Positions 36,183 to 50,059 of a stretch of DNA of 64,000 bases are shown one piece after another (position 1 is the first letter of the stretch; the number at the start of each line of letters is the position of its first letter). The stretch comes from an uncultured Candidatus Saccharibacteria bacterium. GTDB taxonomy: Bacteria > Patescibacteriota > Minisyncoccia > Minisyncoccales > UBA5738. A program made the translations under genes and the position numbers. The stretch is from NCBI GenBank assembly GCA_964470995.1, contig CAYYEP010000001.1, forward strand, positions 65,813-129,812, in the 5' to 3' direction. The notes beneath the pieces were generated by a model. That model saw nothing but the letters and a program-made list of their open reading frames with translations, was not told the origin of the DNA and searched no databases.

Positions 36183-37574
36183 TTAGCATTTTAATAGTTG
36201 TTTGAAATATTCCGCCAGTTCGGAAATTTTGACGTGCACCTGCTCCATTGTATCGCGGTCGCGCACGGTAACGTCGCCTTTTTCCAACGAATCAAAATCA
36301 ACGGTCACGCAATAGGGAGTGCCAATCTCGTCCTGGCGGCGGTAACGTTTGCCAATATTGCCGGAGTCGTCAAATTCGCACATAAAATATTGGCAAAGTT
36401 CTTTATAGATACCGCGGGCTTTGGCGACCAATTCGGGCTTGTTTTTGAGCAGAGGAAAGACCGCGATTTTAATGGGAGCAAGCCGCTTGTCGAATTTCAT
36501 CACGATGCGGGTTTCGCCTTCTTTCACGGCTTCTTCGGTATAGGCTTTATCCAAAAACATAAAGAACAAGCGGTTCAAACCCACCGATGTTTCCATGATA
36601 TGGGGAATGAACTTCTCGCCGGATACCGGGTCGGTGTAGCTTAAGTCCTGGCCGGAGAATTTTTCATGCTGGCTTAGATCCCAGTTGCCGCGGGCGTGGA
36701 TACCCTCCACCTCCTTGTAACCGCCCAAAGATTTGAAATTGTATTCTATGTCGTAGGCCTCGCTGGCGTAGTGCGCCAGTTTTTCGTGTTTGTACCAGCG
36801 AATATCGGCTTCGGTTATGCCATATTCCAAATACCAGTCCCAGCGGGTCTTTTTCCATTCATCGTATTTTTCCTTCATTTGTGACGGATGCAGAAAATAT
36901 TGCATTTCCATCTGCTCGAACTCACGAGTGCGAAAAATGAACTGGCGCGCCACGATCTCGTTGCGGAAAGCCTTCCCCACTTGCGCGATACCAAACGGCA
37001 ATTTCACCCGCACGGTGTCGATAGTGTTTTTGTATTCCAGGTAAATGCCGCCGCATGTTTCCGGCCGCAGATAAACGACGTTTTCTTCGCTTAATGCGTC
37101 AGTGGGAGAACCAAGGTTGGATTTAACCATTAAAGAAAACCTCTTGGCGAGCGTAAGTTCAGCGGAGCCGCAACTGGCGCATTTAAGCTTGCCGGCAGAC
37201 CTTAGCTTATCCAGCTCAGCGTTGATAAATTCCAGCGGCTGCTTGTCGGCACTGATATTGAATTGCTCCAAAATGTGATCGGCGCGCCAGCGGGCTTTAC
37301 ATTTTTTACAATCCACCTGCGGATCGTCAAAGCTTTCCACATGGCCCGACGCCTTCCAGGTCGTCGGGTGCATGAAAATCGCCGAGTCAAGGCCGACTAC
37401 ATCTTCGCGAAGCTGTACCATGGCGCGCCACCAGGCGTCGCGGATATTGTTTTTCAGCAGAGTGCCATAATGGCCGTAATCGTAAATCGCGGCAAAACCG
37501 CCGTAAATTTCCGACGACGGAAACACGAAGCCCCGGCGTTTTGAGAGTGAGATTATGTTTTGCGCTATATCCAT
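36183..37574 (-). CDS. glyQS: glycine--tRNA ligase (homodimeric class II type)
   Basis: SLSKRRGFVFPSSEIYGG N-terminus and class II motifs. 463 aa. Confidence 0.92.
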   Translation of the reverse strand: MDIAQNIISLSKRRGFVFPSSEIYGGFAAIYDYGHYGTLLKNNIRDAWWRAMVQLREDVVGLDSAIFMHPTTWKASGHVESFDDPQVDCKKCKARWRADHILEQFNISADKQPLEFINAELDKLRSAGKLKCASCGSAELTLAKRFSLMVKSNLGSPTDALSEENVVYLRPETCGGIYLEYKNTIDTVRVKLPFGIAQVGKAFRNEIVARQFIFRTREFEQMEMQYFLHPSQMKEKYDEWKKTRWDWYLEYGITEADIRWYKHEKLAHYASEAYDIEYNFKSLGGYKEVEGIHARGNWDLSQHEKFSGQDLSYTDPVSGEKFIPHIMETSVGLNRLFFMFLDKAYTEEAVKEGETRIVMKFDKRLAPIKIAVFPLLKNKPELVAKARGIYKELCQYFMCEFDDSGNIGKRYRRQDEIGTPYCVTVDFDSLEKGDVTVRDRDTMEQVHVKISELAEYFKQLLKC

Positions 37575-37668
37575 AAAATTTTTATATTAATGGTTTTGCT
37601 CCCCTATTTGCGAAAAAGCCGGCTTGCGGCTTTTTTCGCTCATTTGATTTAAATTTACTTTTTTTGTT

Positions 37669-39336
37669 TTATCGGACATTCCCGTCTTCTTCATCCATGC
37701 CGGGATCCGAAACGGATCCGGTATCAACAGACGGCGAGGTTGATTCGAGAACCGATCCGGTCCAGCTGTCGTCCCCGGAGATTTTGGCTTGGCCGATGAC
37801 TCCGGCGGTATTATCGCGCTGGGAAGACATCGGAGTAAGCGTAACCTGAAACGAGACATTTAAAGGATTAGAGATCAACCCCTGCCCGGCAGACATATTC
37901 CCAAGGGTCCAGGTAATCTGGCGAGTGCCTTCATCGTAAGATAGTTTGGAAATCTGATCTTCGGGAAATATTTCGCTGCGGTTGAATTCGACTTCCGGCG
38001 GCAAAGTTGCGGTAACTTTAACGTTCTTTACGTCGGAATAATAATTCTTCGCCTGCCAAGTAACGGTATAGGTAGTTTCGTCTCCCACTTTGGGCGGGAA
38101 CGGGCCGGAATTTCCAAAGATCTCATCATTGTAGTAAGCTTTCTGGGAAATCTCCAGCTTGGAACTGATCTTGGTAATAAAGTCCTCGCGGGCCGCTCCG
38201 ATCATCACTTTGTTGTCGAGTTCGGGCTGGCTCAAACTGCTTAGATCATCCTTCAGGCGGATCCAGAATTCCGCCTTTCCTTCCTCCATCGGCGCCAAGT
38301 AAGTGAGCTTATTGTTCTGCTTCCAGTCGAACACGATCGAACTGTCTCCCTGCTGGAAAGTTCCGGTATCCGAGCGGACAGTGGAAAAATCATACATTCC
38401 GCCTTCAAGATTATCCACCATCACCAGATTATAAAGTTCGCTGTCGCTGATGTTCTTATAATAAATCTCATAATGCAGCCATTCTCCCGGCTTGGCGACA
38501 TAATTGGCGTCGCCGTTGATCGTTTGGCGAATCGATACCGTGGGTTTGACGATCTTGGCCCCCCTCTCAATTTCCCTTAAAGGCACATACTGGCCGTCCT
38601 TCCACATTCCAATGCGGGCCCGGAACACCTTACCTTCATTGAGATCTCCGGAAACCTGTCCAATAATATCGATCACTCCCGACTGCCCCTTATTGAGAAC
38701 CGGGATAGTAAATTCATCTTTATCCAACGATTGCGGAGTAGACTGGGTGAACGCGTATCCCAAAGGATAATCCACCGTAACCCGCAGATCGGTTAACAGC
38801 CAATCAACATTGGAAAGATAATTAATACGCAAATGGAAGTCCTTGTTGGCCTCAATAGTTGAGGAAATATCCATATCCAAATCCAGAGGCACGGCCTGCA
38901 TTACCGTAGTGGCGGAAGTGCTGGATTCGTAGCGTGCGCTCAAATTTTTTGGCTGATAAGATAGCGTAGCCTTCGCGATCTTGGCGTCGCCCTCTTTACC
39001 GATAACCCGCATCTTGAAAGTGATGCTGCGCTCCTCGCCGGGGTAAATAGCGCCGCCCAGCTGATCGGCGGCAATTGTTTCCTGGACATACATATTGCCA
39101 TCCTTAATCGAAAATTCCGGCGCGTAAAATATCAGTGTCGGATTTTCCAGCCGGAAATCGCCGTTGTTTTTATATTTAACGACATATTCGACTTCCTGGC
39201 CCAGTTGCGCCTGGGACGGACCGATCATTTCCAGTTTCAATCCTTCCTTGGAATAGATGTTTTTACGCCAGAAACCATAACCGACAGCGGCCAGAACCAG
39301 AGCGAAAACTATTAATATTTTTATAAATTTACTCAT
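37669..39336 (-). CDS. large exported protein with repeated beta-sandwich-like (CARDB/DUF11-like) modules
   Basis: N-terminal TM anchor. 555 aa, Thr/Ser/Asn-rich repeated ~110-aa modules. Family call is tentative. Confidence 0.7.
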   Translation of the reverse strand: MSKFIKILIVFALVLAAVGYGFWRKNIYSKEGLKLEMIGPSQAQLGQEVEYVVKYKNNGDFRLENPTLIFYAPEFSIKDGNMYVQETIAADQLGGAIYPGEERSITFKMRVIGKEGDAKIAKATLSYQPKNLSARYESSTSATTVMQAVPLDLDMDISSTIEANKDFHLRINYLSNVDWLLTDLRVTVDYPLGYAFTQSTPQSLDKDEFTIPVLNKGQSGVIDIIGQVSGDLNEGKVFRARIGMWKDGQYVPLREIERGAKIVKPTVSIRQTINGDANYVAKPGEWLHYEIYYKNISDSELYNLVMVDNLEGGMYDFSTVRSDTGTFQQGDSSIVFDWKQNNKLTYLAPMEEGKAEFWIRLKDDLSSLSQPELDNKVMIGAAREDFITKISSKLEISQKAYYNDEIFGNSGPFPPKVGDETTYTVTWQAKNYYSDVKNVKVTATLPPEVEFNRSEIFPEDQISKLSYDEGTRQITWTLGNMSAGQGLISNPLNVSFQVTLTPMSSQRDNTAGVIGQAKISGDDSWTGSVLESTSPSVDTGSVSDPGMDEEDGNVR

Positions 39337-39352
39337 CTGCTACTTAATTTCA

Positions 39353-39373
39353 AATTTCCAATTTCCAATTTCC
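39353..39373. repeat. 3 x 7-nt tandem repeat (AATTTCC; GGAAATT in minus sense) in a 5' leader
   Basis: Lies 17 nt upstream of start codon 39336. Confidence 0.6.
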
Positions 39374-39447
39374 GATGAATTTTCAATGAATGGATTTCCA
39401 ATGAAAATCACCAAATTAGAAATTTAATCGAAATTATAAATTAATAA

Positions 39448-40059
39448 TTATTTAGTAATAAGCGCCAGATAATCCCGGGCAATCCGATTAAGATTATTAA
39501 CCTGGCTGCCGGTCAGGCGCATTTTTGCGGAACGGGCAATGTCGGAATCGCGAAAAAGGCGCACCAGCGACCGGCAGGCCGCTCCGGCAAAATCAGCCCC
39601 GAATTCAGGCCGCCAGCCCAGCGATTCAAATAAATGCCAAACAAAATATTGGTAAATGGCATCGGAATTCCGGCGGTCGGCGGTTTCGGCAAAAACCGCG
39701 GCCGAACACACCAAATCCCAAACGTTACTGTCGGATTGCTGATCTTTAATCAGGATTTCGGCCATGGCGGCGATCCGGGTTATCACTTCCCGCTTATCCG
39801 GGTCGCGCCGGGAGTGCTTCAACGGAATTAAAGTTACCGCATCGGTCAAGGTTTTGCAAGTTTTCCCTTGGATAAATTCCAAGTCGATAATCGCAGGAAA
39901 TTCCACCGCCGGGCGCAACTTGGATGCGACCTTGCGGACACCCTTGGCCATAACCTCGATCCGGCCAAAATCTTTAGTGTAAACAACCAAAAGCTGGTCG
40001 GCCTCTCCCCTGTCGATCCTTTTCAGAATAAACGCCTTGGTACGGTAATGAGTAAACAT
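39448..40059 (-). CDS. recO: DNA repair protein RecO
   Basis: AFILKRIDRGEADQLLVVYTKDFGRIEVMAKGVRK OB-fold N-terminus. Confidence 0.85.
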   Translation of the reverse strand: MFTHYRTKAFILKRIDRGEADQLLVVYTKDFGRIEVMAKGVRKVASKLRPAVEFPAIIDLEFIQGKTCKTLTDAVTLIPLKHSRRDPDKREVITRIAAMAEILIKDQQSDSNVWDLVCSAAVFAETADRRNSDAIYQYFVWHLFESLGWRPEFGADFAGAACRSLVRLFRDSDIARSAKMRLTGSQVNNLNRIARDYLALITK

Positions 40060-40066
40060 CTGGGAA

Positions 40067-40528
40067 TCAGCCGGAATATCCGGTTATCGCGGCGATTGTT
40101 TTCATTAACTTATGCCGCTTATCGTCATTGCCACTGGCAAAAATTTTTTTTATTTCCTCGCGGGTAAATTTGAATTTATCCTCAAGTTGCCGGCGGTTGA
40201 AACTCTGTAAATCCCGATACATTTCGATCATAGCAGTTCGCCTTATATATTCTTCAGGCCCCTTAAACACACGCGCCAAAAAGTTCTTTTTCAACTCCGC
40301 AGTTTTCACCGATTCGGGAATCACTTCGGCCAGCACGGGAAATAATGCCTGGGCAATATATTTGGCACGAACAGATTCAAGGCTGGTTCCGGTGAACAAC
40401 AAGGCCGATTCTGAATTTTTTTTATTTTGCGCCTCCTCTTGCTCTTTTTTTTGCGCTTTTCCCTGTTGTATTTGCGCGAGCCTCCGGGCCGCGAATGCGT
40501 AGGCGTTATTCTTTTCGTTTTCGTCCAT
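40067..40528 (-). CDS. hypothetical protein
   Basis: 153-aa ORF, helical and charged. Operonic spacing with its neighbours. Confidence 0.55.
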   Translation of the reverse strand: MDENEKNNAYAFAARRLAQIQQGKAQKKEQEEAQNKKNSESALLFTGTSLESVRAKYIAQALFPVLAEVIPESVKTAELKKNFLARVFKGPEEYIRRTAMIEMYRDLQSFNRRQLEDKFKFTREEIKKIFASGNDDKRHKLMKTIAAITGYSG

Positions 40529-40540
40529 GATATTACAATT

Positions 40541-41173
40541 TTAATTATGGCTGGTACGGCGCATTATTTCTTTGTTGCGGGTAAGTTCGGCGATAGTGCC
40601 GGCAACAGCCCGGTTGGTGCGCGCGCGAGTGGCGCTATCGAGCTTTTTGAAACCGCCCAATTCGGAAACGCTGCCGCCGAGAGCCCGCCGGGCGGCATCA
40701 TTGGCTTTCCCCTTGTGCACGTACGAATTCCAACCAACCTTTTTGCCCTCGATATTGTCAATTATACCTTTGGCGACCCGCGTCTTGTTTTCGGCGGTTT
40801 GCATCCCTGGGGTAAGAAACGCATCAAAGGCCTTGTTTTTGTCCATTATTTGAATGGTTTTTTTGATAGTGGAATTAACTGACGCCGAAGAATTGTATTC
40901 GAGCAGGCCCTTTTCGGGTTTGTTATTTTTACCGTCATTCGCACCAGACGCATTGGCAGTGCCGCTTTCCCGCGTTTTCAGTTCGCGGCGCTGGCGGCCC
41001 CGAGCGTAAAGAGAATTTAGACTTTCTTTGCCGAACCTCGATTTGCCGCCAAAACCCGAAGACATACCGATGCTGGTATCGTTTTTGCCAAATTGCTTAT
41101 CCTGTCCGATTTTAAAACCGCCGCTTAGGCCGTAATCGCTATTCATTGATGAGTCGCCCGGATCGAAAGACAT
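40541..41173 (-). CDS. hypothetical low-complexity (Gly/Ser/Lys-rich) protein
   Basis: 210-aa ORF. Confidence 0.5.
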   Translation of the reverse strand: MSFDPGDSSMNSDYGLSGGFKIGQDKQFGKNDTSIGMSSGFGGKSRFGKESLNSLYARGRQRRELKTRESGTANASGANDGKNNKPEKGLLEYNSSASVNSTIKKTIQIMDKNKAFDAFLTPGMQTAENKTRVAKGIIDNIEGKKVGWNSYVHKGKANDAARRALGGSVSELGGFKKLDSATRARTNRAVAGTIAELTRNKEIMRRTSHN

Positions 41174-41188
41174 GGTTAATATTGAAAT

Positions 41189-42223
41189 TTAGAACAGTTC
41201 GAGAAGCTTTACGAAAAAGAGGAAATATAAGAGAAGAAAAAGAATCCCCTGACCGGCACCGATCTTTTGAGAAACCGCGGCCACTCCCAATAAAACCGAG
41301 GCGGCCGCCAGAAACGGCAAACCAACCGCAAGGATAGCACCGCCAAAAACCAAGGGGGAGAACAGCGACGCCGCGCCGCAAACCAGCAGCAGATTAGCCG
41401 CGGTGGCCGCAAAAAGATTGCCTAAAGTCAGATCCCCTTTCCGGGACCGGATAATTGATACGCCGCCGAACATTTCGGGCATCGCGGTACCAATCGACAA
41501 CGCTACCATTGCCGTGACCGCGGCCGATATCTTCATAATATCGGAAATCCCGACCAGCGAAGCAACAGTAAAATTTGAAGCCGCTACCAACACAAGGCCT
41601 CCCCCCGAAAGCAGGCCGATCATTTTCAAAAAAGAGCGGCGGCCAAGCGCACCGACAGTTTCCAATTTTTTTTCCAGGCGCGTCGGCAGCAGTTGCACGA
41701 TCCGCGCCACGGCGGCACTGCCCAATAGCTCGGGAGTGATTACATCGCGAGCAGTAATACCGCGGGGCCGCGCCGAATAAGAATAAGCGGCATAAACAAA
41801 AAACGCCAGAATCATCAATATGCCTTCGGGAGCGTTAATGCGGCCATCGGCGGCCACCAAGCAAAAAATCGCGACCGCGGAAGCGAACAGCGGCAAGTCG
41901 GTATTGATATATTCACTTTTTAAGAGCAAGGATCCGGCCGAAAACGCACCCAAGCCGGCAACCAACAGGATATTGGCAATCGATGAACCAATAACCACGG
42001 CTACCGCGAGCTCCGTCTGACCCTGCTGGACCGCGGCAAGCGCGGCTCCCATTTCCGGCATTGCCACGGCAATAAGAGCCGCCGGCAGAGAAATATCAGC
42101 TTCGCGCACGCCAAAAATCCGCGCGGCGCGGCGCAAGCCAAGAATAAGCCAGTCCGAAGCTTTAATAAGAGCACAGACCGAGGTAATGAATATTAATGAC
42201 CAGACTAGAAGCTCCATAATCAA
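41189..42223 (-). CDS. Ca2+/cation antiporter (CaCA, YrbG-like)
   Basis: Two alpha-repeat regions (GSSIANILLV; GTAMPEM), about 10 TM helices. Confidence 0.8.
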   Translation of the reverse strand: MIMELLVWSLIFITSVCALIKASDWLILGLRRAARIFGVREADISLPAALIAVAMPEMGAALAAVQQGQTELAVAVVIGSSIANILLVAGLGAFSAGSLLLKSEYINTDLPLFASAVAIFCLVAADGRINAPEGILMILAFFVYAAYSYSARPRGITARDVITPELLGSAAVARIVQLLPTRLEKKLETVGALGRRSFLKMIGLLSGGGLVLVAASNFTVASLVGISDIMKISAAVTAMVALSIGTAMPEMFGGVSIIRSRKGDLTLGNLFAATAANLLLVCGAASLFSPLVFGGAILAVGLPFLAAASVLLGVAAVSQKIGAGQGILFLLLYFLFFVKLLELF

Positions 42224-42325
42224 CTCGATATTAATAGAAATTAGCTCCGCGAAATTAATTGAATTTTCTATTAAAAACCAATTTCAAAAAATTTCAAGAG
42301 TTTCCAAGAATTTCTATTAAATATT

Positions 42326-45300
42326 TTAACACTTTTTAATGCCTACCCAAAGCGGTTGATTATCCACATTCACTGATTTTTCGGCCGCAAGCTTGGCCGG
42401 TTTTTCAAACCTTACCCCGGCGGCTTTGGTTTCGCGCGCGATCAAGCTCTGGTTTTTTTGGACGGCGGCGAATAAATCTCCTTCGGTTTTGATGAAAGCA
42501 ATAATCTTGTCGGCCGGAGTGAATTTAGCTTTTTTGCGCAGTTCCTGGATATTGCGCATCACTTCGCGCACATTTCCCTCTTCGCGCAGTTCGGGAGTAA
42601 TGTTCCAATCGAGCTCCATAGGAACAGCCAGAGCGGAGTCGAACTCCACGGCTTTAACATTAATCTCTTCAGCCAGAAGATCCCGGAGATCATTACCAAA
42701 TGGTTTTACCTTGCCGCCAACAATCAGCTTTGCCAACGGCTGGCGAATCTTGACCGCATGCTGGGCGCGCTGGGCAAGCGCCAGGGTAACCAGTTCGCGC
42801 ACTTTGGCCATTTGCTCATTCAGGGCGGCATCGTTTTTTTGGGCTTTTACCGCCGGCCAGCTTTCCAGATGCACCGACTTGGCCTTGGCGTAACCATTGC
42901 CTGACACTCCCTGATAAACCTCTTCGGCAATAAACGGCGCGAAGGGCGCAATAATACGGGCCAAGTTTTCCAGAACGTAAGCATAAACTTTGGCGGCGGC
43001 AACCAGTTCGGCGCGGTTTTGCGGCTGTTGCAGCCGGCGGCGCATCCGGCGCACATACCATAACGAAAGGTCGTTAATCGTAAACGATTCGATACCGCGC
43101 GCGGCCGCGACAATATCGTATTTATCCAGAAGAACCGAGGTGTCGGCGACTATCCGGGACAAACGCGCCACGATCCAGCGATCCAGAATATTAACGGGCG
43201 CGATGGTTGAAGGAGCCTTTACTCCGGGAGCATAAGTATTCAGAAAAACGTAACAATTCCAGAATGTAAGCAGAAATTTTTTGAGCGCGCCATCCAAATC
43301 GGACTCTTTGTAGAGCTTTGGGTCGCCCGGCTCGTTGACGGTGTAAAAATACCACCGCACGGCATCAGCGCCGTACTTTTGCACCATATCCCAGGGATTA
43401 ATGACATTGCCTTTGGATTTGGACATTTTATCCCCTTTCTCGTCCAAAACATGGCCAAGGGAAACAACATTTTTATAAGACGCTTTAAACCCAAGTACCG
43501 TCGCGACCGACAGCAAAGTATAGAACCACCCGCGCGTCTGGTCGATGGCTTCGGAAATAAAATCCGCGGGATAAAGTTTGGGAGGCACTAATTTGGACGG
43601 TGTTTTCCCCGACGGGCCGACTGCGCCGGAGGCGACGCCGTGCCAAGGCCAATGCTGCTGGGCAAAAGGCATCGAACCGGAGTCCAACCAGCAGTCGCAA
43701 ACCTGGGGCACACGGTGCATCCGGCCGGCACACTTGGGGCAGACCGGCGTTACGCCATCAATGAACGGACGGTGCAAATCGAGTTCCATATTATCATTGA
43801 ACGGCAATTGTTTGAATTCAACCGGACGACATTCAGCAGTGGCAATCCTTTTTATTTTTCCGGAATAACGCTGTTCGATGATATCTTTCAAATCCATACC
43901 TTTAAGCGTCCATTCCAGCATGGTCAGGGGCATTTCGTGGGAAATGATAACGATATTTTTGCCGGCGTATTTTTGGTCGATTTCGGATAAAAAATCATAG
44001 ACGCGGCGGCGCAAACCGATAAGGCTCTCGCCTCTTTTGGGTTTGGCCGAAAAGCGATTTGCTTTGGTGCCAATATAATCCCAATAAACTTTAGGATCTT
44101 TGCCGTTGAGTTCGCCGACATTGACTTCGCGCAGGCGTTTGTCGTAAACAACTTTGGCGCCAGTGGCTTCGGAAATGATTTGCGCGGTTTCTTTCGTTCG
44201 CAAAATATCGGAGGCGATTATCAGATCTATTTTCGCCGATTTGGCCAGTTTTTTGGCGTTAAGCGCGATCTTTTTTTTGCCTTTTTCGGTGAGCGGCAAA
44301 GGCGCGGGTTCGGGCCAACAGCTGGCGATCTTTTTTATTTGCCGAAGCGACTCGCCGTGGCGGAAAATAAAATATTTGTTGGCTGAATAGCGGCGCGACA
44401 ACATCTCGGAAACCGAACCGATAAGATCGGTATGGCCGCAGCTGCATTTCCAGATTGGAAGAGGCGTTCCCCAGTAACGGTCGCGAGATACGGCCCAGTC
44501 TTTCACCTCTCGCAGCCATTCGCCGAAGCGGCCTTCTTTCAGATAAGCAGGATACCAGTTGATGGTCTGGTTATTTTTAATCAATTGCGCGCGCAATTCA
44601 GTCATTTTAATGAACCAACTCAAGCGGGCGTAATACAGCAACGGAGTCTTACAACGCCAACAGAACGGATAGTCGTGCTCATAAGGAACGGCGGCGAACA
44701 GCAACCCCCTATCTTTGAGATCATCAATAATCGACGGATCGGCATCCTTAACGAATACGCCCGCCCATTTGGCGACATCCAAAGAGAAAGTGCCGTCTTC
44801 GCCGACGTTTAAGATTATTGGAAATTCCGGCTGGCCGGAAGCTTTAAGCTTTTTGTTTTCTTTTTTAACCGCTTCCATATCTTCGGCACCGAACGCCGGC
44901 GCGATATGCACGATACCGGTGCCGTCTTCGGTGGATACAAAATCCGCCCCGATGACCCGGTAAATGGTTTTTTCGGATTCCAGGCTTGCCGGGAATACCG
45001 CTTGGTAACGCAAACCGATAAGATCGGTCCCATTCATTTCGCCAACAATCTCATAGCCATCGCCCAAAACTTCCAGACGGCTTTTTGCCAAAATAAAAAT
45101 TTCCGGACTGTCTTTGGGCTTGGCTTTAACATAGTCGATCGCGGGATTGACCGCCGCGGCCACATTGGCCGGCAAAGTCCAAGGAGTAGTTGTCCAGACA
45201 AGCAATGAACTGTTCTCGAACTCCGGATTCAACACCGCAAACTTCACGTAAACGGAGGGGTCTTTCACTTTTTTGTAACCCTGCGCGACTTCGTGGCTCG

Positions 45301-45853
45301 AAAGGGCCGTGCCGCAGCGCGAACAATAAGGAATGACTTTATAATCCTGAAATAAAAGTTTTTTGTCCCAGGCGGTTTTTAAAATGTGCCACACCGATTC
45401 CATATATTTGGGATCGTAGGTAATGTAGGCATTCTCGAAATCAAGCCAGTAACCGATGCGTTCGGTTAGGTTCTGCCATTCGCCAATCTGCTCAAAGACG
45501 GAATCTTTGCATTCCTTATTAAATTGCTTGATCCCGTATGTTTCGATCTCTTTTTTATTATGAAGCCCCAATTTTTTTTCGATCTGCAATTCCACGGGCA
45601 AGCCATGAGTATCCCATCCGGCGCGGCGCTGGACGCGAAAGCCGCGCATGGTCTTGTAACGGCAAACCATATCTTTGAAAACGCGGGTTTCGACATGATG
45701 GATACCCGGTCTGGCGTTGGCCGTGGGCGGACCTTCGTAGAATACGAACTCCTTGGCACCCTTCTTGCGGCCGCTGACGGATTTTTCGAAGACCGAATGT
45801 TTTTTCCAGAATTCGATTGTCTTTTGCTCCTTCTCGTTAAAATTTAATTCCAT
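42326..45853 (-). CDS. ileS: isoleucine--tRNA ligase (type 2) with an inserted histidine-phosphatase (PGAM-like) domain
   Basis: PPTANARPGIHH, TTTPWTLPAN editing domain, WKCSCGH, DLHRPFID, DKMSKSKGN. Start moved to ATG 45853 (MELNFNEKEQ). Insert at 43805-44380. Confidence 0.9.
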   Translation of the reverse strand: MELNFNEKEQKTIEFWKKHSVFEKSVSGRKKGAKEFVFYEGPPTANARPGIHHVETRVFKDMVCRYKTMRGFRVQRRAGWDTHGLPVELQIEKKLGLHNKKEIETYGIKQFNKECKDSVFEQIGEWQNLTERIGYWLDFENAYITYDPKYMESVWHILKTAWDKKLLFQDYKVIPYCSRCGTALSSHEVAQGYKKVKDPSVYVKFAVLNPEFENSSLLVWTTTPWTLPANVAAAVNPAIDYVKAKPKDSPEIFILAKSRLEVLGDGYEIVGEMNGTDLIGLRYQAVFPASLESEKTIYRVIGADFVSTEDGTGIVHIAPAFGAEDMEAVKKENKKLKASGQPEFPIILNVGEDGTFSLDVAKWAGVFVKDADPSIIDDLKDRGLLFAAVPYEHDYPFCWRCKTPLLYYARLSWFIKMTELRAQLIKNNQTINWYPAYLKEGRFGEWLREVKDWAVSRDRYWGTPLPIWKCSCGHTDLIGSVSEMLSRRYSANKYFIFRHGESLRQIKKIASCWPEPAPLPLTEKGKKKIALNAKKLAKSAKIDLIIASDILRTKETAQIISEATGAKVVYDKRLREVNVGELNGKDPKVYWDYIGTKANRFSAKPKRGESLIGLRRRVYDFLSEIDQKYAGKNIVIISHEMPLTMLEWTLKGMDLKDIIEQRYSGKIKRIATAECRPVEFKQLPFNDNMELDLHRPFIDGVTPVCPKCAGRMHRVPQVCDCWLDSGSMPFAQQHWPWHGVASGAVGPSGKTPSKLVPPKLYPADFISEAIDQTRGWFYTLLSVATVLGFKASYKNVVSLGHVLDEKGDKMSKSKGNVINPWDMVQKYGADAVRWYFYTVNEPGDPKLYKESDLDGALKKFLLTFWNCYVFLNTYAPGVKAPSTIAPVNILDRWIVARLSRIVADTSVLLDKYDIVAAARGIESFTINDLSLWYVRRMRRRLQQPQNRAELVAAAKVYAYVLENLARIIAPFAPFIAEEVYQGVSGNGYAKAKSVHLESWPAVKAQKNDAALNEQMAKVRELVTLALAQRAQHAVKIRQPLAKLIVGGKVKPFGNDLRDLLAEEINVKAVEFDSALAVPMELDWNITPELREEGNVREVMRNIQELRKKAKFTPADKIIAFIKTEGDLFAAVQKNQSLIARETKAAGVRFEKPAKLAAEKSVNVDNQPLWVGIKKC

Positions 45854-45947
45854 AAATGTATTGTATGGTTTATCAATCCAAATGTAGCAAATTTTACCAA
45901 TATTTAAAGGGAGAGCGCCATAAAACAAAATCGGGCATCTATTTAGC

Positions 45948-45973
45948 AAAAAACGGACTCCTCACGGGATCCG
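45948..45973 (-). terminator. terminator upstream of ileS
   Basis: Minus sense CGGATCC-CGTGA-GGAGTCCG-TTTTTT. Confidence 0.55.
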
Positions 45974-46411
45974 CTTTCTGGTTGCTTACCCCCATTCTCA
46001 ATCCGCGGCGGTGGCACCCATTCCGGACCGCGAAAAATCAAGATAAATAATAGGGTTATGCATATTTATAATTTGGAGCAAGTCTCGCACGACCTGTTCC
46101 GCCCACATAGCTTTATGTCGCTGGAGTTTCGGTGGCTGCCGGAGCGGCCGGGATCTCTTGCGGAACTACTGCCGGTTCCTGGGGTTGGGGTTGAGCCTGA
46201 GGTTCGGTTTGAGGTTGAACCTGGGGTTCGATTCCTGTCGCGTTGTCTCCTTCCATATATATTTTTAACAAAAATCCAAATTTCGCGACAAAAATGGGTG
46301 GTTTTGGCGTAAAAATTTTAATTTTTGCTGATTAACCCGGCGAAGGCAAGATGCGCCCATTGCACAAGCTTAATTTCATAATAGTTTTCGATTTTAACAA
46401 TTGTCAAATTT

Positions 46412-46439
46412 TAAAAAAATACCCGGTCAAAAGCCGGGC
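46412..46439 (-). terminator. terminator downstream of argS
   Basis: Minus sense CCCGGC-TTTTGA-CCGGGTATTTTTTT. Confidence 0.65.
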
Positions 46440-46459
46440 AGTGAAAACGATATTCTAGT

Positions 46460-48073
46460 TTACATTTTTTCGGGAGCAGAAATCCCCAGAAGCGCCAATG
46501 AATTTGCCAAGACAGCCTTGGTTGAATATGCCAGAGCCAGCCGGGCGCGGGTCAGTTTGGCGTCTGTACCAATAACCTGGCATTCGCCGTAGAATTTATG
46601 AAAGCTGGCCGCAAGTTCGGTGGCGTACAGGCAAACTCTTTGCACCTGATAATCGCGGGCGGTATCCTGGACAATTTCGGGCAGGCGCAACAAATCTTTT
46701 ATTAGCGCGGTTTCGGCCGGGTGCTGTAAAAGCTTGAAATCCGCGGTTAGGGCAGTAATTTTTTTGGCTTTTGCTTTTCTTAATATACTGGCGATGCGCG
46801 CGTGGGCGTATTGCACATAAAAAACCGGCGAATCACTGGAACGCTGTTTGGCAAGATTCACATCGAATTCCATCTGCGATTGCAAAGAATTTTGCAGATA
46901 GAAAAATCGGGCGGCATCTACGCCAACCTCATCAATAAGCCAATTGAGCGAAATGATGTTCCCTTCCCTCTTGGAGATTTTGCCGCCCTTAATGGTCACG
47001 ATCTGACAGATCAACACTTCGAATTCGCCCTTATAACCCAAAATATCCATCACGGCTTTCATGCGCGGCACATGGCCTTGGTGGTCGGCGCCCCAAATGT
47101 CGATGATAAATTTAAAACCGCGCTTCATTTTATCGAGATGATACGCAATATCCGACAGGAAATAGGTGGGGCTGCCGTTGGCGCGCAATAGCACTTCGTC
47201 TTTCTGACCATATTTAGACATATCCAGCCAATAAGCGTCGTCTTTGGCAACAACCAGCCCTTTCTTTTTGAGAATATCATAGGTTTTCATTACCAGACGA
47301 TCCCTATATAAGATCTCTTCAGACATCCATCTATCGAACTTTATTTTTAAATCCTTTTCCACGAATTTCTTCAGATCCTTGACAACCTGGCCGGCTAAAA
47401 AATATCCCGCGTCGGTTTCGGAATGGATTAGGGAAAGCTTGGCCTGAAGCGAGGCAATCTTATCCTTCAGATAAGGAGAAAGATAGGCAACCCCATTGCC
47501 CAGGGCGGTAGCGCCCAGAGCTTGGATCTGCTTGGAAACCTTGGCGTCGTTGATGTAATATTCGCGATCAACTTTGTAACCGGCGGCCGACAAAACATTG
47601 CTTAACGCGTCGCCGTAGAACGCGCTACGACCGTTGCCTACGTGCAACTGACCCGAAGGGTTGGCGGAAATGAATTCAATCTGGGTTTTTTTGCCCCTTC
47701 CGGCGTTCACGCGGCCGTATTTGGCGCCGGCGCGAATAATCGCCGCCGCCTCCGAAGCCAGATATCCGGGCGACAAAACGAAGTTGATAAAACCGGGAGC
47801 GGCAGTATTAACGGCGGAAAAATGTTTGGCGAAATTTTTGTCTTTTTTGATCTCTTCGGCGATGGCTACGGCAATTTCCATTGGATTCCTTTTGAGGGTA
47901 CGCGCCAGCCGCATCGCAACATTGGAAGAATAATCTCCGTGGATCCGATCCTTACAGGGACTGGCCGACTTACATTCCCCCGCCAAGCTTCCGTCGCTAA
48001 TAATAAAAATTCCGGTATTGGCCAGCCGTTTCAAAGCCTTAAGGGTTATATCATTAACAATTTGGCGTACCAT
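46460..48073 (-). CDS. argS: arginine--tRNA ligase
   Basis: 537 aa. IEFISANPSGQLHVGNGR (HIGH-type) and a C-terminal DALR anticodon-binding pattern. Confidence 0.92.
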   Translation of the reverse strand: MVRQIVNDITLKALKRLANTGIFIISDGSLAGECKSASPCKDRIHGDYSSNVAMRLARTLKRNPMEIAVAIAEEIKKDKNFAKHFSAVNTAAPGFINFVLSPGYLASEAAAIIRAGAKYGRVNAGRGKKTQIEFISANPSGQLHVGNGRSAFYGDALSNVLSAAGYKVDREYYINDAKVSKQIQALGATALGNGVAYLSPYLKDKIASLQAKLSLIHSETDAGYFLAGQVVKDLKKFVEKDLKIKFDRWMSEEILYRDRLVMKTYDILKKKGLVVAKDDAYWLDMSKYGQKDEVLLRANGSPTYFLSDIAYHLDKMKRGFKFIIDIWGADHQGHVPRMKAVMDILGYKGEFEVLICQIVTIKGGKISKREGNIISLNWLIDEVGVDAARFFYLQNSLQSQMEFDVNLAKQRSSDSPVFYVQYAHARIASILRKAKAKKITALTADFKLLQHPAETALIKDLLRLPEIVQDTARDYQVQRVCLYATELAASFHKFYGECQVIGTDAKLTRARLALAYSTKAVLANSLALLGISAPEKM

Positions 48074-48262
48074 TGATTTTGATTAAAATATCATGAAAAA
48101 ACGGGCTATGCTCCGCGATTACAGCTTAGCTTAAATGAGCTAAAAATAAAAATTTTTGTTGCTGCCATCTTCATATATTTTAAATTTATTAACATAATTT
48201 ATTTTTTTGTCAAGACTAACTTAAACAAGGGTTTTGGGCTAGAATGAAGCAGAATCAAGCTT

Positions 48263-48727
48263 ATGAAGGTATTCGCCGAAAACAGAAAAGCGAGTTACAA
48301 CTACGAGATCATCGAAAGATTCGAGGCCGGAGTGATGTTAAACGGCCAGGAAGCCAAATCGATCAAAACCCGGGGATTATCCCTGACAGGCTCCTATGTA
48401 ATCGTCAAACCGGACGGGGTTTTTTGGTTTGGCGCCAAAATCCACCCCTATCAGCCGGCCAACGCGGGCGCGGATTACCACGAAGAACGGGACCGCAAGC
48501 TTTTATTGCATAAATCCGAGATTCAGCGTTTAGCCGGAATCGCTTCCCAAAAAGGCTTGACTTTTGTGCCTCTTCGGTTATATACTAAAGAGCATTATGA
48601 AGGCTCCGGCAAAGTGAAGCTGGAGTTTGGAGTTTGCCGTGGCAAAAAAAAATTCGACAAGCGCGAATCAATCAAGAAACGCGACATTGACCGCGAAATT
48701 AAACGGGCGTACGGGAAATACGTTTAA
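48263..48727 (+). CDS. smpB: SsrA-binding protein SmpB
   Basis: ENRKASYNYEIIERFEAGVMLNGQEAKSIK. tmRNA follows 100 nt downstream. Confidence 0.92.
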   Translation: MKVFAENRKASYNYEIIERFEAGVMLNGQEAKSIKTRGLSLTGSYVIVKPDGVFWFGAKIHPYQPANAGADYHEERDRKLLLHKSEIQRLAGIASQKGLTFVPLRLYTKEHYEGSGKVKLEFGVCRGKKKFDKRESIKKRDIDREIKRAYGKYV

Positions 48728-48826
48728 TTTCGAGTGATTTATGAATCGCAATTTAAGGTTTATGAATAAATTTAAATTCGTATTTATTCATAAATCATGA
48801 ATTGTAAATCATGATTCGTTGTTTTT

Positions 48827-49189
48827 GGGGATGTAAGGCTTCGATGGTTTATCGGCCAACCGGCCGCAAGCCAAGTTGCTAAATCTTGTAAAAATTAGCG
48901 AAAATCAAAAGTGCCAAATCGAATACATTCGCTTTTAGCGCTCCGGAATTAGTTTACGCCTAGTAGACTGCCGGTGTCCGGCAGACGGATTCTCCATTAA
49001 ATTTGCCGGGCATAACCTTTTGGAGATAGATGGTTCTCCCCTGCCCCAGGGAATCATTGAAAACAAAACGGGCAAAGGACTTGGAGTTTTTGTCGGATTT
49101 CTTATTCCAGGCCCCAAACAAACCCGACTAAGCTTGTAGAAACCGCTTGACTGGTTTCCCAGATACGGGTTCAAGTCCCGCCGTCTCCA
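48827..49189 (+). ncRNA. ssrA: tmRNA (SsrA)
   Basis: 5' GGGGATGTAAGGCTTCGA and 3' GGGTTCAAGTCCCGCCGTCTCCA form a tRNA-Ala-like domain with G3:U70. Tag ORF ...AKSNTFAFSAPELVYA ends in TAG TAG (48998-49003). CCA is not encoded. Confidence 0.9.
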
Positions 49190-49253
49190 CATAATTTTGC
49201 AAATCAAAATTCCATTTAATAACTGATAGTTTATCAGTCAAATAGAAAAAGGA

Positions 49254-49757
49254 GTGTTTAAAAAACCATTAATCAATAATCAAATACGGGCATCGCAGGT
49301 AAGATTGATCGATGAGGCCGACCACCAAATAGGCGTTATTTCGTTGAAGGAAGCGTTGGAAATGGCTTGGGCAAAGCATCTCGACCTGGTGCAGGTAACC
49401 GATAAGGTAAGCCCGCCGGTAGCAAGGATAACGGATTACGGCAAATATCTTTATTCCCTGCAAAAGAAAGACAAGGGAAAACGAACCAGCGAGGTGAAAA
49501 GCATCCGCCTAACCTATAATATTTCCCCGCATGATATGGAAACGCGCGCCGGCCAGGCAAAGAAATTCCTCGAGAAGGGCGACAAGGTTAAAATCGATTT
49601 AAGATTGAGAGGCCGAGAAAAAGCATTCGCCAATCTTTCAAAAGAAAAAGTGGGCCAATTCTTGGAAATTTTGGGCAAATCCATGCCCTACAAAATTGAC
49701 CAAGAGATAAAGAGGGAGATGGGCGGATTCAACATGATCATCTCCAAGGGGCAATAA
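49254..49757 (+). CDS. infC: translation initiation factor IF-3
   Basis: NNQIRASQVRLIDEADHQIGVISLKEALEMA. There is no in-frame ATG near the 5' end; the tracked start is GTG abutting the SD AAAGGAG. Confidence 0.9.
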   Translation: MFKKPLINNQIRASQVRLIDEADHQIGVISLKEALEMAWAKHLDLVQVTDKVSPPVARITDYGKYLYSLQKKDKGKRTSEVKSIRLTYNISPHDMETRAGQAKKFLEKGDKVKIDLRLRGREKAFANLSKEKVGQFLEILGKSMPYKIDQEIKREMGGFNMIISKGQ

Positions 49758-49802
49758 AATACAACCATAAAATCCAAACGGAATTTTACAGTAACAAAGA
49801 TT

Positions 49803-49988
49803 ATGAAAACAAGAAAATCGATAACCAAACGCTTCAAGATCACCAAGAACGGCAAGATCATGAGAAGAGCGACAGGCCAAAACCATCTGCGCTCGAAAAA
49901 ATCCGGGAATACCGTGCGCGCCGGACGCAAATGGGTACCACTCAACGAATCGGAAGCCAAAAAGATAAGAAAACTGATCGTAAAGTAA
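49803..49988 (+). CDS. rpmI: 50S ribosomal protein L35
   Basis: MKTRKSITKRFKITKNGKIMRR. Confidence 0.92.
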   Translation: MKTRKSITKRFKITKNGKIMRRATGQNHLRSKKSGNTVRAGRKWVPLNESEAKKIRKLIVK

Positions 49989-50059
49989 AATTAAGCTGCT
50001 GAAATTTGTTGAAACTTGCTTCGCGAAATTATTAGAAATTTAACGCATTAATGCGGCTG

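What the first reader, a model, noticed from the sequence alone, without database searches (positions are those of the whole stretch)
43805..44380. Histidine-phosphatase (PGAM-like) domain embedded inside isoleucyl-tRNA synthetase
Type 2 IleRS enzymes usually have only about 25-30 residues between the conserved WKCSCGH...GSVSEM segment and DLHRPFID. Here there are about 190 extra residues with the hallmarks of the histidine phosphatase superfamily: YFIFRHGES (catalytic RHG), PLTEKGKKKIA, SDILRTKETAQII, RLREVNVGELNG, GESLIGLRRRV and VIISHEMPL. The frame is continuous and the flanking IleRS motifs are intact. I am not aware of an aaRS with an inserted PGAM-type domain. Possible roles are hydrolysis of a phosphorylated nucleotide or alarmone, or tRNA 2',3'-cyclic or 3'-phosphate end repair coupled to charging.
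Basis: partly seen in the sequence, partly recalled or inferred. Interest (0 to 1): 0.65.

Follow-up and report, generated by a model that had tools for sequence, protein, structure and literature searches.

The report
Histidine phosphatase nested inside isoleucyl-tRNA synthetase
The gene for the enzyme that loads isoleucine onto tRNA carries a complete, apparently active phosphatase domain inside one of its surface loops; hundreds of ultra-small (CPR/Patescibacteria) bacterial species share this layout, I found no paper describing it, and its substrate is unknown.

Summary
The minus-strand ORF 42326-45853 encodes a 1175-aa type-2 IleRS (TIGR00392, 864 bits). A 194-aa His_Phos_1 domain (PF00300, E=1e-30) sits in frame at residues 488-681. 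It replaces about 3 residues of the zinc-finger CP3 loop of T. thermophilus IleRS.

The domain is not an accident:
- All 120 closest IleRS homologues carry it.
- At least 546 species-representative genomes encode a relative, mostly Paceibacteria/Parcubacteria.
- Its catalytic set is invariant or conservatively kept in 52 diverse homologues: R498, H499, R552, E576 (Asp in 10) and H639.
- Its dN/dS (about 0.10) equals that of the host.
- AlphaFold models it as a discrete PhoE/PspA/CobC-like fold (pLDDT about 92).

In lineages with an insert-less ileS, the same phosphatase is a separate gene between argS and ileS. Relatives are also nested in ValRS (1-4 copies), placed at other IleRS sites, and fused to ArgRS and to a TsaC/Sua5-type enzyme.

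The best reading is a bifunctional IleRS-phosphatase whose phosphatase module has repeatedly joined ATP-adenylating tRNA enzymes. The substrate is unknown; PPi or a nucleotide by-product is favoured, and tRNA-end repair is less likely. No literature describes it. It is a new variant of a known kind.

The parts
42326..45853 (-). ileS CDS, 1175 aa plus stop: type-2 isoleucyl-tRNA synthetase with a nested phosphatase domain
   Evidence: ORF. TIGR00392 863.6 bits. Best solved relative is 1ILE at E=7.5e-237. Identical to P0014.
44393..45853 (-). IleRS N-terminal part (aa 1-487): first half of the Rossmann/HUP domain, CP core, CP1 editing domain, CP2, CP2-3 linker and first half of the CP3 zinc finger
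   Evidence: Pfam tRNA-synt_1 at 12-486. Aligns to Tth IleRS 7-479. Domain names follow PMC7191050 and PMC7955072.
43811..44392 (-). Nested His_Phos_1 domain (aa 488-681), with essentially no linkers
   Evidence: PF00300 E=1.2e-30. AF2 pLDDT 92.8 alone and about 92 inside the full-length model. Foldseek TM 0.70-0.75 to PspA, PhoE, CobC and GpgP. Stand-alone homologues span the same residues from Met to C-terminus.
42329..43810 (-). IleRS C-terminal part (aa 682-1175): second half of CP3, second half of the Rossmann fold with KMSKS, anticodon-binding domain, DUF5915 C-terminal domains
   Evidence: Pfam Anticodon_1 at 891-1042 and DUF5915 at 1067-1174. Aligns to Tth IleRS 488-819.
44354..44362 (-). 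R498-H499-G500: the RHG motif, with H499 the predicted phospho-accepting nucleophile
   Evidence: R and H are invariant in 52/52 nested homologues and G in 51/52. Also kept in all extra copies in ValRS and IleRS variants.
44198..44200 (-). R552: second phosphate-pocket arginine (SDxLRT motif)
   Evidence: Invariant 52/52.
44126..44128 (-). E576: predicted general acid (RLRE motif)
   Evidence: Glu in 42 and Asp in 10 of 52. Glu in all other-site copies.
43937..43939 (-). H639: second catalytic histidine (SHE motif)
   Evidence: Invariant 52/52.
44438..44446 (-). C470 and C472: first pair of CP3 zinc-finger cysteines, upstream of the insert
   Evidence: Invariant 52/52. Align with the Tth CxxC preceding residue 479.
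43730..43741 (-). C705 and C708: second pair of CP3 zinc-finger cysteines, downstream of the insert
   Evidence: Invariant 52/52. Tth CP3 carries a zinc-binding motif (PMC7191050).
44468..44503 (-). CP2-3 linker KDWAVSRDRYWG. In yeast IleRS this segment lines the tRNA CCA-end / reveromycin pocket. It lies about 25 residues upstream of the insertion point.
   Evidence: Sequence. Role of the homologous ARDWNVSRNRYWG from PMC7955072.
45695..45706 (-). G50-I-H-H53: non-canonical GXHH form of the class I HIGH signature
   Evidence: Sequence. G50 and H52 invariant, H53 at least 90%. Meaning of the motif from PMC10485003.
43415..43429 (-). KMSKS signature loop
   Evidence: Sequence. Invariant K809-S813.
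46460..48073 (-). argS (arginyl-tRNA synthetase), the conserved upstream neighbour. In relatives the stand-alone phosphatase gene lies between argS and ileS, or is fused to the ArgRS C-terminus.
   Evidence: Pfam Arg_tRNA_synt_N, tRNA-synt_1d and DALR_1. Synteny.

Best explanation
The gene encodes a bifunctional protein.

The host is a complete type-2 isoleucyl-tRNA synthetase. It has a GXHH signature, KMSKS, the CP1 editing domain, the anticodon-binding domain and the C-terminal domains, so it should charge tRNA-Ile normally.

A whole 194-aa branch-1 histidine phosphatase is nested, with almost no linker, in the tip of the CP3 zinc-finger loop. This loop lies between the DWxVSRxRYWG linker and the DxWxDSG strand of the Rossmann fold.

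Shown:
- The domain is real and discretely folded.
- It is lineage-wide in Paceibacteria.
- It is under the same purifying selection as the host.
- It keeps the full catalytic set.

Inferred mechanism: it hydrolyses a phosphate ester or anhydride through a phospho-His499 intermediate. R498, R552 and H639 hold the phosphate, and E576 acts as the acid.

Inferred geometry: the chain enters at the start of strand beta-1 and the RHG motif sits at its far end. The active site should therefore point away from the IleRS body and be open to solvent.

Shown, origin: the module is the same protein that in other Paceibacteria is a separate gene in an argS-hp-ileS operon. Relatives have joined ValRS (same homologous loop, 1-4 copies), other IleRS loops, the ArgRS C-terminus and a TsaC/Sua5-type enzyme.

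Inferred function: all these partners make an acyl-adenylate from ATP and release PPi, then AMP. I therefore favour a role that serves adenylate-forming tRNA enzymes by removing a phosphorylated by-product. PPi is my first guess and a nucleotide my second. The substrate itself is speculative.
For: Identity and boundaries.

Discrete fold: the full-length AF2 model has pLDDT 87-96 across residues 481-700, the best-modelled part of the protein. The isolated insert has pLDDT 92.8 and pTM 0.89. Foldseek matches PspA 4IJ5/4IJ6, PhoE 1H2E, CobC 6E4B and GpgP 4QIH at TM 0.70-0.75. The profile search of PDB sequences gives the same relatives.

Catalytic conservation: R498, H499, R552 and H639 are 52/52, and E576 is Glu in 42 and Asp in 10. 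The same set is intact in 21 of 22 additional nested copies.

Selection: dN/dS is 0.10 in the insert, against 0.07 and 0.10 in the host halves.

Spread:
- 120/120 top IleRS homologues (52-100% identity) carry PF00300.
- At least 546 GTDB species genomes encode a relative.
- 261 representatives at 50% clustering score E<=1e-30.

Operon link:
- The stand-alone gene lies between argS and an insert-less ileS in 12 loci.
- An ArgRS::HP fusion occurs in a locus syntenic with the window.

Other partners:
- ValRS with 1-3 copies in 69 of 119 homologues; 71 of the 82 domains lie in the homologous DWxISR-to-DxWFxS interval.
- One ValRS with 4 copies.
- IleRS with copies at two further sites.
- A Sua5_yciO_yrdC + HP fusion.

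Junctions are positionally fixed and conserved.
Against: No biochemical data exist, and no coordinates were available. The position of the phosphatase active site relative to the IleRS sites is inferred from fold topology only.

The adenylation by-product idea rests on partner identity. The TsaC-type fusion is a single 3.7-kb contig. The ArgRS fusion could be a neutral read-through of adjacent genes.

No extra basic residues that would fit a PPi leaving group are universal across copies: K572 and R575 vary.

CPR class Ia synthetases also host unrelated domains, such as DUF559 and an HU-like tail. This fits a 'permissive carrier' reading.

Three stand-alone loci sit in a different context, gatCA-CarS-like-HP-murJ.

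I could not determine whether these genomes lack a conventional pyrophosphatase (one search was uninformative).
Confidence: 0.5

Rival explanations
1. Hitch-hiking housekeeping phosphatase. The domain is an ordinary small-molecule phosphatase of the PhoE/PspA/CobC type whose job has nothing to do with aminoacylation. The CP3 loop of class Ia synthetases is simply a structurally permissive site in an essential, constitutively expressed gene. Nesting guarantees expression and prevents loss in a streamlined genome.
For: The closest solved relatives are small-molecule phosphatases. The stand-alone form must work in trans. CPR ValRS also carries unrelated nested or fused domains: DUF559 in P0312 and P0347, and an HU-like tail in P0321. 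NCBIfam has an 'ileS_w_GNAT' family. Charge of the domain follows that of its host in ValRS. Three stand-alone loci have a non-aaRS context.
Against: Among the 148 best profile hits, every multi-domain partner is an ATP-adenylating enzyme of tRNA metabolism: IleRS, ValRS, ArgRS or a TsaC-type protein. No unrelated large protein appears. The operon position between argS and ileS is conserved in 12 of 15 stand-alone loci. Multiple copies and multiple sites suggest repeated selection for the association.
Confidence: 0.3
2. tRNA end-healing. The phosphatase removes a 3'-phosphate, 2'-phosphate or opened 2',3'-cyclic phosphate from damaged tRNA 3' ends, so that the synthetase can recharge them.
For: The insertion point lies about 25 residues after the CP2-3 linker that lines the tRNA CCA pocket. 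IleRS-nested copies are more basic than their host, +6.4 against +2.4 net charges per 100 aa. All the synthetase partners bind tRNA.
Against: No member of the superfamily retrieved here acts on RNA ends. ValRS-nested copies are acidic, at -2.2 per 100 aa. The TsaC/Sua5-type partner makes TC-AMP and does not itself bind tRNA (plus established knowledge of t6A synthesis). Tandem arrays of 2-4 copies are hard to rationalise for end repair. Fold topology suggests the active site faces away from the host (inference).
Confidence: 0.12
3. Non-catalytic module. The domain is a pseudo-enzyme used as a structural brace or as a sensor that binds a phosphorylated ligand and allosterically tunes IleRS.
For: Zero-length, conserved junctions imply a fixed orientation on the host. 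One nested copy, P0274, has Trp in place of the second Arg.
Against: The nucleophile, both arginines, the acid and the second histidine are kept in 52/52 nested homologues and in 21 of 22 other copies. The stand-alone homologue has the same residues.
Confidence: 0.05
4. Assembly or annotation artefact: a chimeric contig or a mis-joined frame.
For: None beyond the metagenomic origin of all the sequences.
Against: The identical protein appears in independent sources. The same architecture appears in 120 clusters from NCBI, JGI, ENA and Logan and in at least 60 independent genome loci, including a closed 689-kb chromosome, CP179887.1. GC and GC3 of the insert (0.46/0.52) are close to those of the flanks (0.49-0.52/0.58-0.59).
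Confidence: 0.01

Closest known systems
Type-2 isoleucyl-tRNA synthetase (T. thermophilus IleRS 1ILE; Priestia megaterium IleRS2 8C8U-8C9D)
   Same: Full-length collinear similarity outside the insert, E=7.5e-237 and 3e-229. Same domain order, CP3 cysteines, KMSKS, editing motifs and C-terminal DUF5915-type domains. The GXHH signature variant is described for IleRS2 (PMC10485003).
   Different: CP3 carries a nested 194-aa enzyme domain where Tth has about 3-8 loop residues. No solved or described IleRS has this.
Small branch-1 histidine phosphatases: PspA/iPSP1 (4IJ5), PhoE/YhfR (1H2E, 1EBB), CobC (6E4B, 6NRU), GpgP Rv2419c (4QIH)
   Same: Same fold (TM 0.70-0.75), same size (about 200 aa) and same catalytic residues, at 19-26% identity.
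   Different: Those are free-standing enzymes with known small-molecule substrates. This one is nested in a synthetase, and none of the curated equivalog models reaches its cutoff. Substrate specificity therefore cannot be transferred.
Stand-alone Patescibacteria His_Phos proteins (P0001-P0009; genes in L035, L037, L044, L081 and others)
   Same: 43-48% identical over the whole insert and share the SCWPE, DKRLRE and SHE.PL motifs. They are encoded between argS and ileS.
   Different: They are separate 187-227 aa polypeptides, and the adjacent IleRS lacks the insert (920-977 aa in the three that were measured). They are uncharacterised.
IleRS with an extra enzyme domain: NCBIfam NF040702 'isoleucine--tRNA ligase, N-acetyltransferase domain-containing'
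   Same: A precedent for an IleRS that carries an additional catalytic domain. It is listed among the hits.
   Different: The domain family is different (GNAT). The window protein scores 297.7 bits against a cutoff of 1999, so it is not a member. I did not examine where the GNAT domain sits.
Bifunctional RNase H / CobC-like acid phosphatase (NCBIfam NF005567, the Rv2228c type)
   Same: A branch-1 histidine phosphatase fused to a nucleic-acid enzyme. It is the second-best NCBIfam hit of the insert, at 76 bits.
   Different: That is an end-to-end fusion, not a nested one. The score is far below the cutoff (326). The partner enzyme is different.
Fusions of a PPi-releasing enzyme with a pyrophosphatase (ATP sulfurylase-APS kinase-PPase fusions of some algae; recalled from memory, not checked here)
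   Same: A functional analogy for the favoured by-product-removal hypothesis.
   Different: Those use a family I pyrophosphatase domain, not a histidine phosphatase. No evidence yet shows that this domain hydrolyses PPi.

Membership tests
Histidine phosphatase superfamily, branch 1 (Pfam PF00300 His_Phos_1) | Score above the Pfam gathering threshold | tested here: met
   101.9 bits in the whole protein and 107 bits for the insert alone, against 21.7.
Histidine phosphatase superfamily, branch 1 (Pfam PF00300 His_Phos_1) | RHG motif with the nucleophilic His at the end of strand beta-1 | tested here: met
   R498-H499-G500. Invariant in 52 homologues. Strand 493-498 in the model.
Histidine phosphatase superfamily, branch 1 (Pfam PF00300 His_Phos_1) | Second Arg, second His and an acidic proton donor | tested here: met
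   R552 52/52, H639 52/52, E576 as Glu in 42 and Asp in 10.
Histidine phosphatase superfamily, branch 1 (Pfam PF00300 His_Phos_1) | Alpha/beta/alpha sandwich fold of the superfamily | tested here: met
   AF2 pLDDT 92.8. Foldseek probability 1.00 and TM 0.70-0.75 to many solved members.
Histidine phosphatase superfamily, branch 1 (Pfam PF00300 His_Phos_1) | Phosphoryl transfer through a phospho-histidine intermediate | not testable with these tools
   Requires an enzyme assay and an H499A mutant.
Cofactor-dependent phosphoglycerate mutase proper (dPGM) | Curated equivalog score (NF038349 dPGM_arch, TIGR01258 pgm_1) | tested here: not met
   81.8 bits against a cutoff of 225, and 24.2 against 81.7. 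The domain is about 40-50 aa shorter than dPGMs, and Foldseek rmsd to dPGMs is about 7 A.
CobC alpha-ribazole phosphatase / PspA phosphoserine phosphatase / SixA | Curated equivalog score | tested here: not met
   TIGR03162 72.6 against 162.9; NF045917 61.8 against 350; TIGR00249 27.9 against 74.5.
Isoleucyl-tRNA synthetase (TIGR00392 ileS) | Curated equivalog score | tested here: met
   863.6 bits against 621.4.
Isoleucyl-tRNA synthetase (TIGR00392 ileS) | Class I signature motifs and CP1 editing motifs present | tested here: met
   GIHH (a GXHH variant), KMSKS and WTTTPWT. These columns are invariant or nearly so.
Isoleucyl-tRNA synthetase (TIGR00392 ileS) | Isoleucine-specific aminoacylation of tRNA-Ile, and being the cell's only IleRS | not testable with these tools
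   The whole genome is not available, and no assay exists.
Type-2 IleRS (IleRS2 / eukaryote-like) | Closest to IleRS2 rather than IleRS1, with a type-2 C-terminal organisation lacking a C-terminal zinc-binding domain | tested here: met
   Tth and P. megaterium IleRS2 score 767-792 bits, against 248-287 bits for IleRS1 (1FFY, 8C9E). Pfam DUF5915 is at the C-terminus. GXHH occurs only in IleRS2 (PMC10485003).
Acquired mupirocin-resistance IleRS (MupA / MupB) | Curated exception-model score | tested here: not met
   765.7 and 782.9 bits against a cutoff of 1900.
NF040702 IleRS with GNAT domain | Curated score and presence of an acetyltransferase domain | tested here: not met
   297.7 bits against 1999. 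No GNAT Pfam hit.

The most novel reading that the evidence does not exclude
A dedicated histidine phosphatase has been recruited again and again into the ATP-adenylating enzymes of tRNA metabolism in CPR bacteria: IleRS, ValRS, ArgRS and TsaC. The reason would be that it is mechanistically coupled to them. One option is a tethered pyrophosphatase or nucleotide phosphatase that pulls amino-acid activation forward in cells with minimal metabolism. Another is an enzyme that acts on a phosphorylated form of tRNA or of the synthetase itself. That would make it a previously unrecognised accessory activity of aminoacyl-tRNA synthetases.
Probability: 0.3. Interest if true: 0.85.

Novelty: new variant of a known kind. 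Interest (0 to 1): 0.72.

Why it matters
Aminoacyl-tRNA synthetases are among the best-studied enzymes, and their insertion modules have been catalogued in detail. A full second enzyme nested in the CP3 zinc finger has not been described in any paper I could find. Here it is conserved with an intact active site across a whole class of Patescibacteria. It recurs in ValRS, ArgRS and a TsaC-type enzyme, and sometimes appears in 2-4 copies.

If the phosphatase is coupled to aminoacylation, it would reveal a new accessory reaction of the charging machinery. It would also show how ultra-small, metabolically minimal cells organise translation. If it is only a passenger, it is still a clear natural example of repeated domain nesting from a neighbouring operon gene into an essential enzyme. 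In that case the stand-alone, end-fused and nested states are all still extant for comparison.

The question is directly testable with recombinant protein. It may also be testable in the one cultured member of the class, Minisyncoccus archaeiphilus, if its IleRS carries the insert.

Tried and rejected
- **Model coordinates.** They are not exposed: /data holds only FASTA files. I could not measure distances between the phosphatase pocket and the synthetic, editing or tRNA sites.
- **AFDB Foldseek library.** It was unavailable.
- **Remnant phosphatase gene.** None was found in the 606-bp argS-ileS spacer of the window; hmmsearch --max gave nothing better than E about 1.
- **Family I pyrophosphatase.** Only about one hit would be expected by chance coverage, so the result says nothing.
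- **Charge analysis as a test for RNA binding.** IleRS-nested copies are basic, but ValRS-nested copies are acidic like their hosts. There is no general signature.
- **Direction and number of nesting events.** NJ trees of the IleRS core need at least 4 state changes in 100/100 bootstraps. Against that, the junctions are identical in all clades, and most separate phosphatases cluster together on the phosphatase tree. The question is unresolved, and I make no claim about it.
- **Genes between the stand-alone phosphatase and ileS.** In some loci the intervening genes are unrelated to each other, so they are not part of a conserved system.
- **Literature.** Eight full-text searches plus targeted reading found no mention of a phosphatase in any synthetase. 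The reading covered the 2026 survey of 96,219 IleRS sequences, the AARS insertion-module catalogue and CPR protein-family and review papers. The library lacks most subscription journals, so absence is not proof.
- **The insert-only word-index search.** It missed almost all nested homologues, with only 212 candidates. Taken alone, it would have wrongly suggested the architecture is nearly unique.
Full report
**1. The observation**

The window holds one uninterrupted minus-strand ORF. From the ATG at 45853 to the stop at 42326 it encodes 1175 aa. This protein is identical to a database protein seen on contigs up to 151 kb (P0014).

- Pfam places His_Phos_1 (PF00300) at residues 495-658 with E=4.5e-29. 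The interval alone scores E=1.2e-30, 107 bits against a gathering score of 21.7.
- The rest of the protein is isoleucyl-tRNA synthetase. TIGR00392 scores 863.6 bits against a cutoff of 621.4.
- The best solved relative is T. thermophilus IleRS 1ILE at E=7.5e-237.
- That alignment splits exactly at the insert: query 2-487 matches Tth 7-479, and query 691-1032 matches Tth 488-819.

Comparison with stand-alone homologues and with Tth puts the domain boundaries at residues 488-681, window 43811-44392.

**2. Where the domain sits in IleRS**

The insert lies between two invariant cysteine pairs: C470/C472 and C705/C708. This is the CP3 subdomain.
- In the nomenclature used for Candida and yeast IleRS, CP3 follows CP2 and leads into the second half of the Rossmann fold. 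In T. thermophilus IleRS it contains a zinc-binding motif (PMC7191050).
- In the catalogue of synthetase insertion modules, CP3 is a 25-77 aa cysteine-rich zinc finger with no assigned function (PMC10810186).
- The CP2-3 linker, KDWAVSRDRYWG here, lies about 25 residues upstream of the insertion point. In yeast IleRS this linker lines the pocket that binds the tRNA CCA end and reveromycin A (PMC7955072).

**3. The domain is real, folded and under selection**

- In the full-length AlphaFold2 model (52-sequence alignment; mean pLDDT 80, pTM 0.69), residues 481-700 form the best-predicted stretch, with block means of 87-96.
- Modelled alone, the insert has pLDDT 92.8 and pTM 0.89.
- Foldseek matches small branch-1 histidine phosphatases at TM 0.70-0.75 and 19-26% identity. 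These include phosphoserine phosphatase PspA, PhoE, CobC and glucosyl-3-phosphoglycerate phosphatase. A profile search of PDB sequences returns the same set.
- In 52 diverse nested homologues (53-85% identical overall), R498, H499, R552 and H639 are invariant. The acid E576 is Glu in 42 and Asp in 10.
- dN/dS between the window and its closest relative is 0.10 in the insert, against 0.07 and 0.10 in the two IleRS halves. dS is above 1, so these values are approximate.
- GC and GC3 of the insert resemble those of the flanks.

None of the curated equivalog models reaches its cutoff; I checked dPGM, CobC, PspA, GpmB and SixA. The domain is therefore 'PGAM-like' only at superfamily level, and its substrate cannot be read from homology.

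**4. How widespread it is**

- All 120 best IleRS homologues, from 100% down to 52% identity and 1145-1244 aa long, carry PF00300. Their source names include Minisyncoccales, Paceibacterota, Nealsonbacteria and Pacebacteria.
Named hosts include Paceibacterota/Parcubacteria, Nealson-, Wolfe-, Wildermuth-, Jorgensen-, Campbell- and Staskawiczbacteria, plus a closed 689-kb chromosome.
- Of the 80 best loci, 65 have the domain inside ileS and 15 encode it as a separate ~190-230 aa protein. Including the two loci fetched, the counts are 67 and 15.
- A full HMMER scan of 1.84 billion representatives gave 261 proteins at E<=1e-30.

The first, insert-only word-index search had found almost no nested homologues. 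That result came from the index's limited sensitivity, not from the biology.

**5. The operon link**

In 12 loci with a separate phosphatase gene, the gene lies directly after argS and before an insert-less ileS. In some of these loci one unrelated gene sits in between.

In the window, and in most nested loci where argS lies within the fetched region, the order is argS then ileS with the domain inside.

A locus syntenic with the window (infC-smpB, argS, recO, DUF7619, class II aaRS) has the phosphatase fused to the C-terminus of ArgRS, with no ileS at that position.

The same module therefore exists as a free operon partner, as an end fusion to ArgRS, and as a nested domain of IleRS.

Three stand-alone loci have a different context: gatC-gatA-x-CarS-like-HP-murJ-lepA.

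**6. Beyond the finding**

The profile search also returned these architectures:
- IleRS of another clade (canonical HYGH) with two domains in tandem around the DLH motif.
- IleRS with a copy in the loop after WFESGSMPYA.
- IleRS with a copy between the catalytic and anticodon-binding domains.
- A ValRS with four copies.
- A Sua5/YciO/YrdC (TsaC-type) protein with a C-terminal copy.
- Tandem HP-HP proteins.

A search with the four-copy ValRS showed that 69 of its 119 best homologues carry 1-3 copies. These come from Gracilibacteria and Peregrinibacteria. Of the 82 domains, 71 lie in the interval homologous to the IleRS site.

Twenty-one of 22 such extra copies keep the complete catalytic set.

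**7. Mechanism**

Shown: the protein is a complete IleRS plus a complete, conserved histidine-phosphatase module with zero-length, conserved junctions.

Inferred from the chemistry of the superfamily: the module transfers a phosphoryl group to H499, with R498, R552 and H639 binding the phosphate and E576 as the acid.

Inferred from fold topology: the chain enters at the start of strand beta-1 and the RHG motif is at its far end. The active site should therefore face away from the host and be solvent-accessible. I could not check this because model coordinates are not exposed.

The substrate is unknown. The multi-domain partners found are IleRS, ValRS, ArgRS and a TsaC-type enzyme. All of them form an acyl-adenylate from ATP and release PPi, then AMP. 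TsaC does not itself bind tRNA (established knowledge of t6A synthesis). On that basis I favour a role in removing a phosphorylated by-product of adenylation, with PPi first and a nucleotide second.

This ranking is weak, for these reasons:
- The TsaC-type fusion is one short contig.
- The ArgRS fusion could be a neutral read-through of adjacent genes.
- No extra basic pocket is universal across copies.
- CPR ValRS also hosts unrelated domains, which supports a 'permissive carrier' alternative.
- Charge analysis gives no general RNA-binding signature.

**8. Evolution**

NJ trees of the IleRS core need at least four nested/separate transitions in all 100 bootstraps. Against that, the junctions are identical in every nested clade, and most separate phosphatases cluster together on the phosphatase tree. 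I could not resolve whether this reflects repeated nesting, ileS replacement or method artefact.

**9. Comparison with what is known, and novelty**

Synthetases with appended or inserted domains are a familiar theme. NCBIfam even has an IleRS-with-GNAT family.

I found no description of a phosphatase inside any synthetase in these sources:
- Eight full-text searches.
- A 2026 survey of 96,219 IleRS sequences with domain annotation.
- The insertion-module catalogue.
- CPR protein-family and review papers.

Public annotation calls these proteins 'class I tRNA ligase family protein' or 'isoleucine--tRNA ligase'. I rate the finding a new variant of a known kind, with interest 0.72. It is surprising to a synthetase specialist, phylogenetically broad and directly testable, but its function is open.

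Noticed in passing
window 45695-45706 (-), aa 50-53: The IleRS carries GIHH instead of the canonical HxGH class I signature, and G50 and H52 are invariant in the whole nested clade. PMC10485003 links the GXHH swap in IleRS2 to mupirocin hyper-resistance (Ki in the mM range).
   Followed up: partly
P0134, P0289-P0407 (not in the window): ValRS of Gracilibacteria and Peregrinibacteria carries 1-4 nested His_Phos_1 domains, mostly in the loop homologous to the IleRS site. 69 of the 119 best homologues of P0134 have at least one copy.
   Followed up: partly
P0171, P0174, P0223, P0231, P0243, P0246, P0256, P0259, P0287; locus L083 6001-10260: IleRS of another clade (canonical HYGH) has the phosphatase at other sites: after the second CxxC/DLH motif, after WFESGSMPYA..HYPF, and between the catalytic and anticodon-binding domains. 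These often occur as two copies per protein. One such protein is on a 1.06-Mb contig.
   Followed up: partly
P0152 / locus L085 6001-8070; P0213 / locus L084 977-2140: End-to-end fusions of the same phosphatase family to ArgRS (in a locus syntenic with the window) and to a Sua5/YciO/YrdC (TsaC-type) protein (a single 3.7-kb contig). P0200 and P0249 are tandem HP-HP proteins.
   Followed up: partly
P0312, P0347, P0321 (not in the window): CPR ValRS also hosts unrelated extra domains: a nested DUF559 (PF04480; I recall it as Vsr-like endonuclease, not checked) and a C-terminal HU-like Bac_DNA_binding segment. P0312 has both DUF559 and His_Phos_1. Class Ia synthetases of CPR look like hot spots for domain nesting.
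   Followed up: no
window 45854-46459 (argS-ileS spacer, minus strand): The 606-bp spacer holds a terminator-like hairpin after argS (46440-46420) and a near-consensus promoter (TTGACA-18-TATTAT, 46407-46378). It also holds a small ORF of about 45 codons, rich in Pro and Gln, and a second hairpin with a T-run just before ileS. There is no Rfam hit and no remnant of a phosphatase gene.
   Followed up: partly
window 36183-52000: A translation-rich syntenic block: class II aaRS (36183-37574), DUF11/DUF7619 protein, recO, Na/Ca exchanger, ileS, argS, smpB (48263-48727), tmRNA (48827-49192), infC (49254-49757). The same order is kept in locus L085.
   Followed up: partly
loci L026, L028, L047: A subclade of stand-alone phosphatases is not next to ileS. 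It overlaps the end of a CarS-like (PF01864) membrane-protein gene, in the order mreB-gatC-gatA-x-CarS-like-HP-murJ-lepA.
   Followed up: partly
locus L081 209-2502: Upstream of the argS-HP-ileS operon of this Patescibacteria MAG lies a second, more distant His_Phos_1 gene flanked by an Exo_endo_phos gene and a NUDIX gene. This may be a small cluster of phosphoesterases.
   Followed up: no
loci L001-L080 record titles: Many loci that are clearly Paceibacteria-like are titled 'uncultured Candidatus Saccharibacteria bacterium' (binchicken MAGs). One is titled 'Candidatus Binatia' (L076) and one 'Pacearchaeota archaeon' (L006). These record names are probably unreliable or the contigs are mis-binned.
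   Followed up: no
P0274 (1249 aa IleRS): One nested copy has RHS instead of RHG and Trp in place of the second catalytic Arg (SSEMLWTKQTA). It may be a degenerating or repurposed copy.
   Followed up: no
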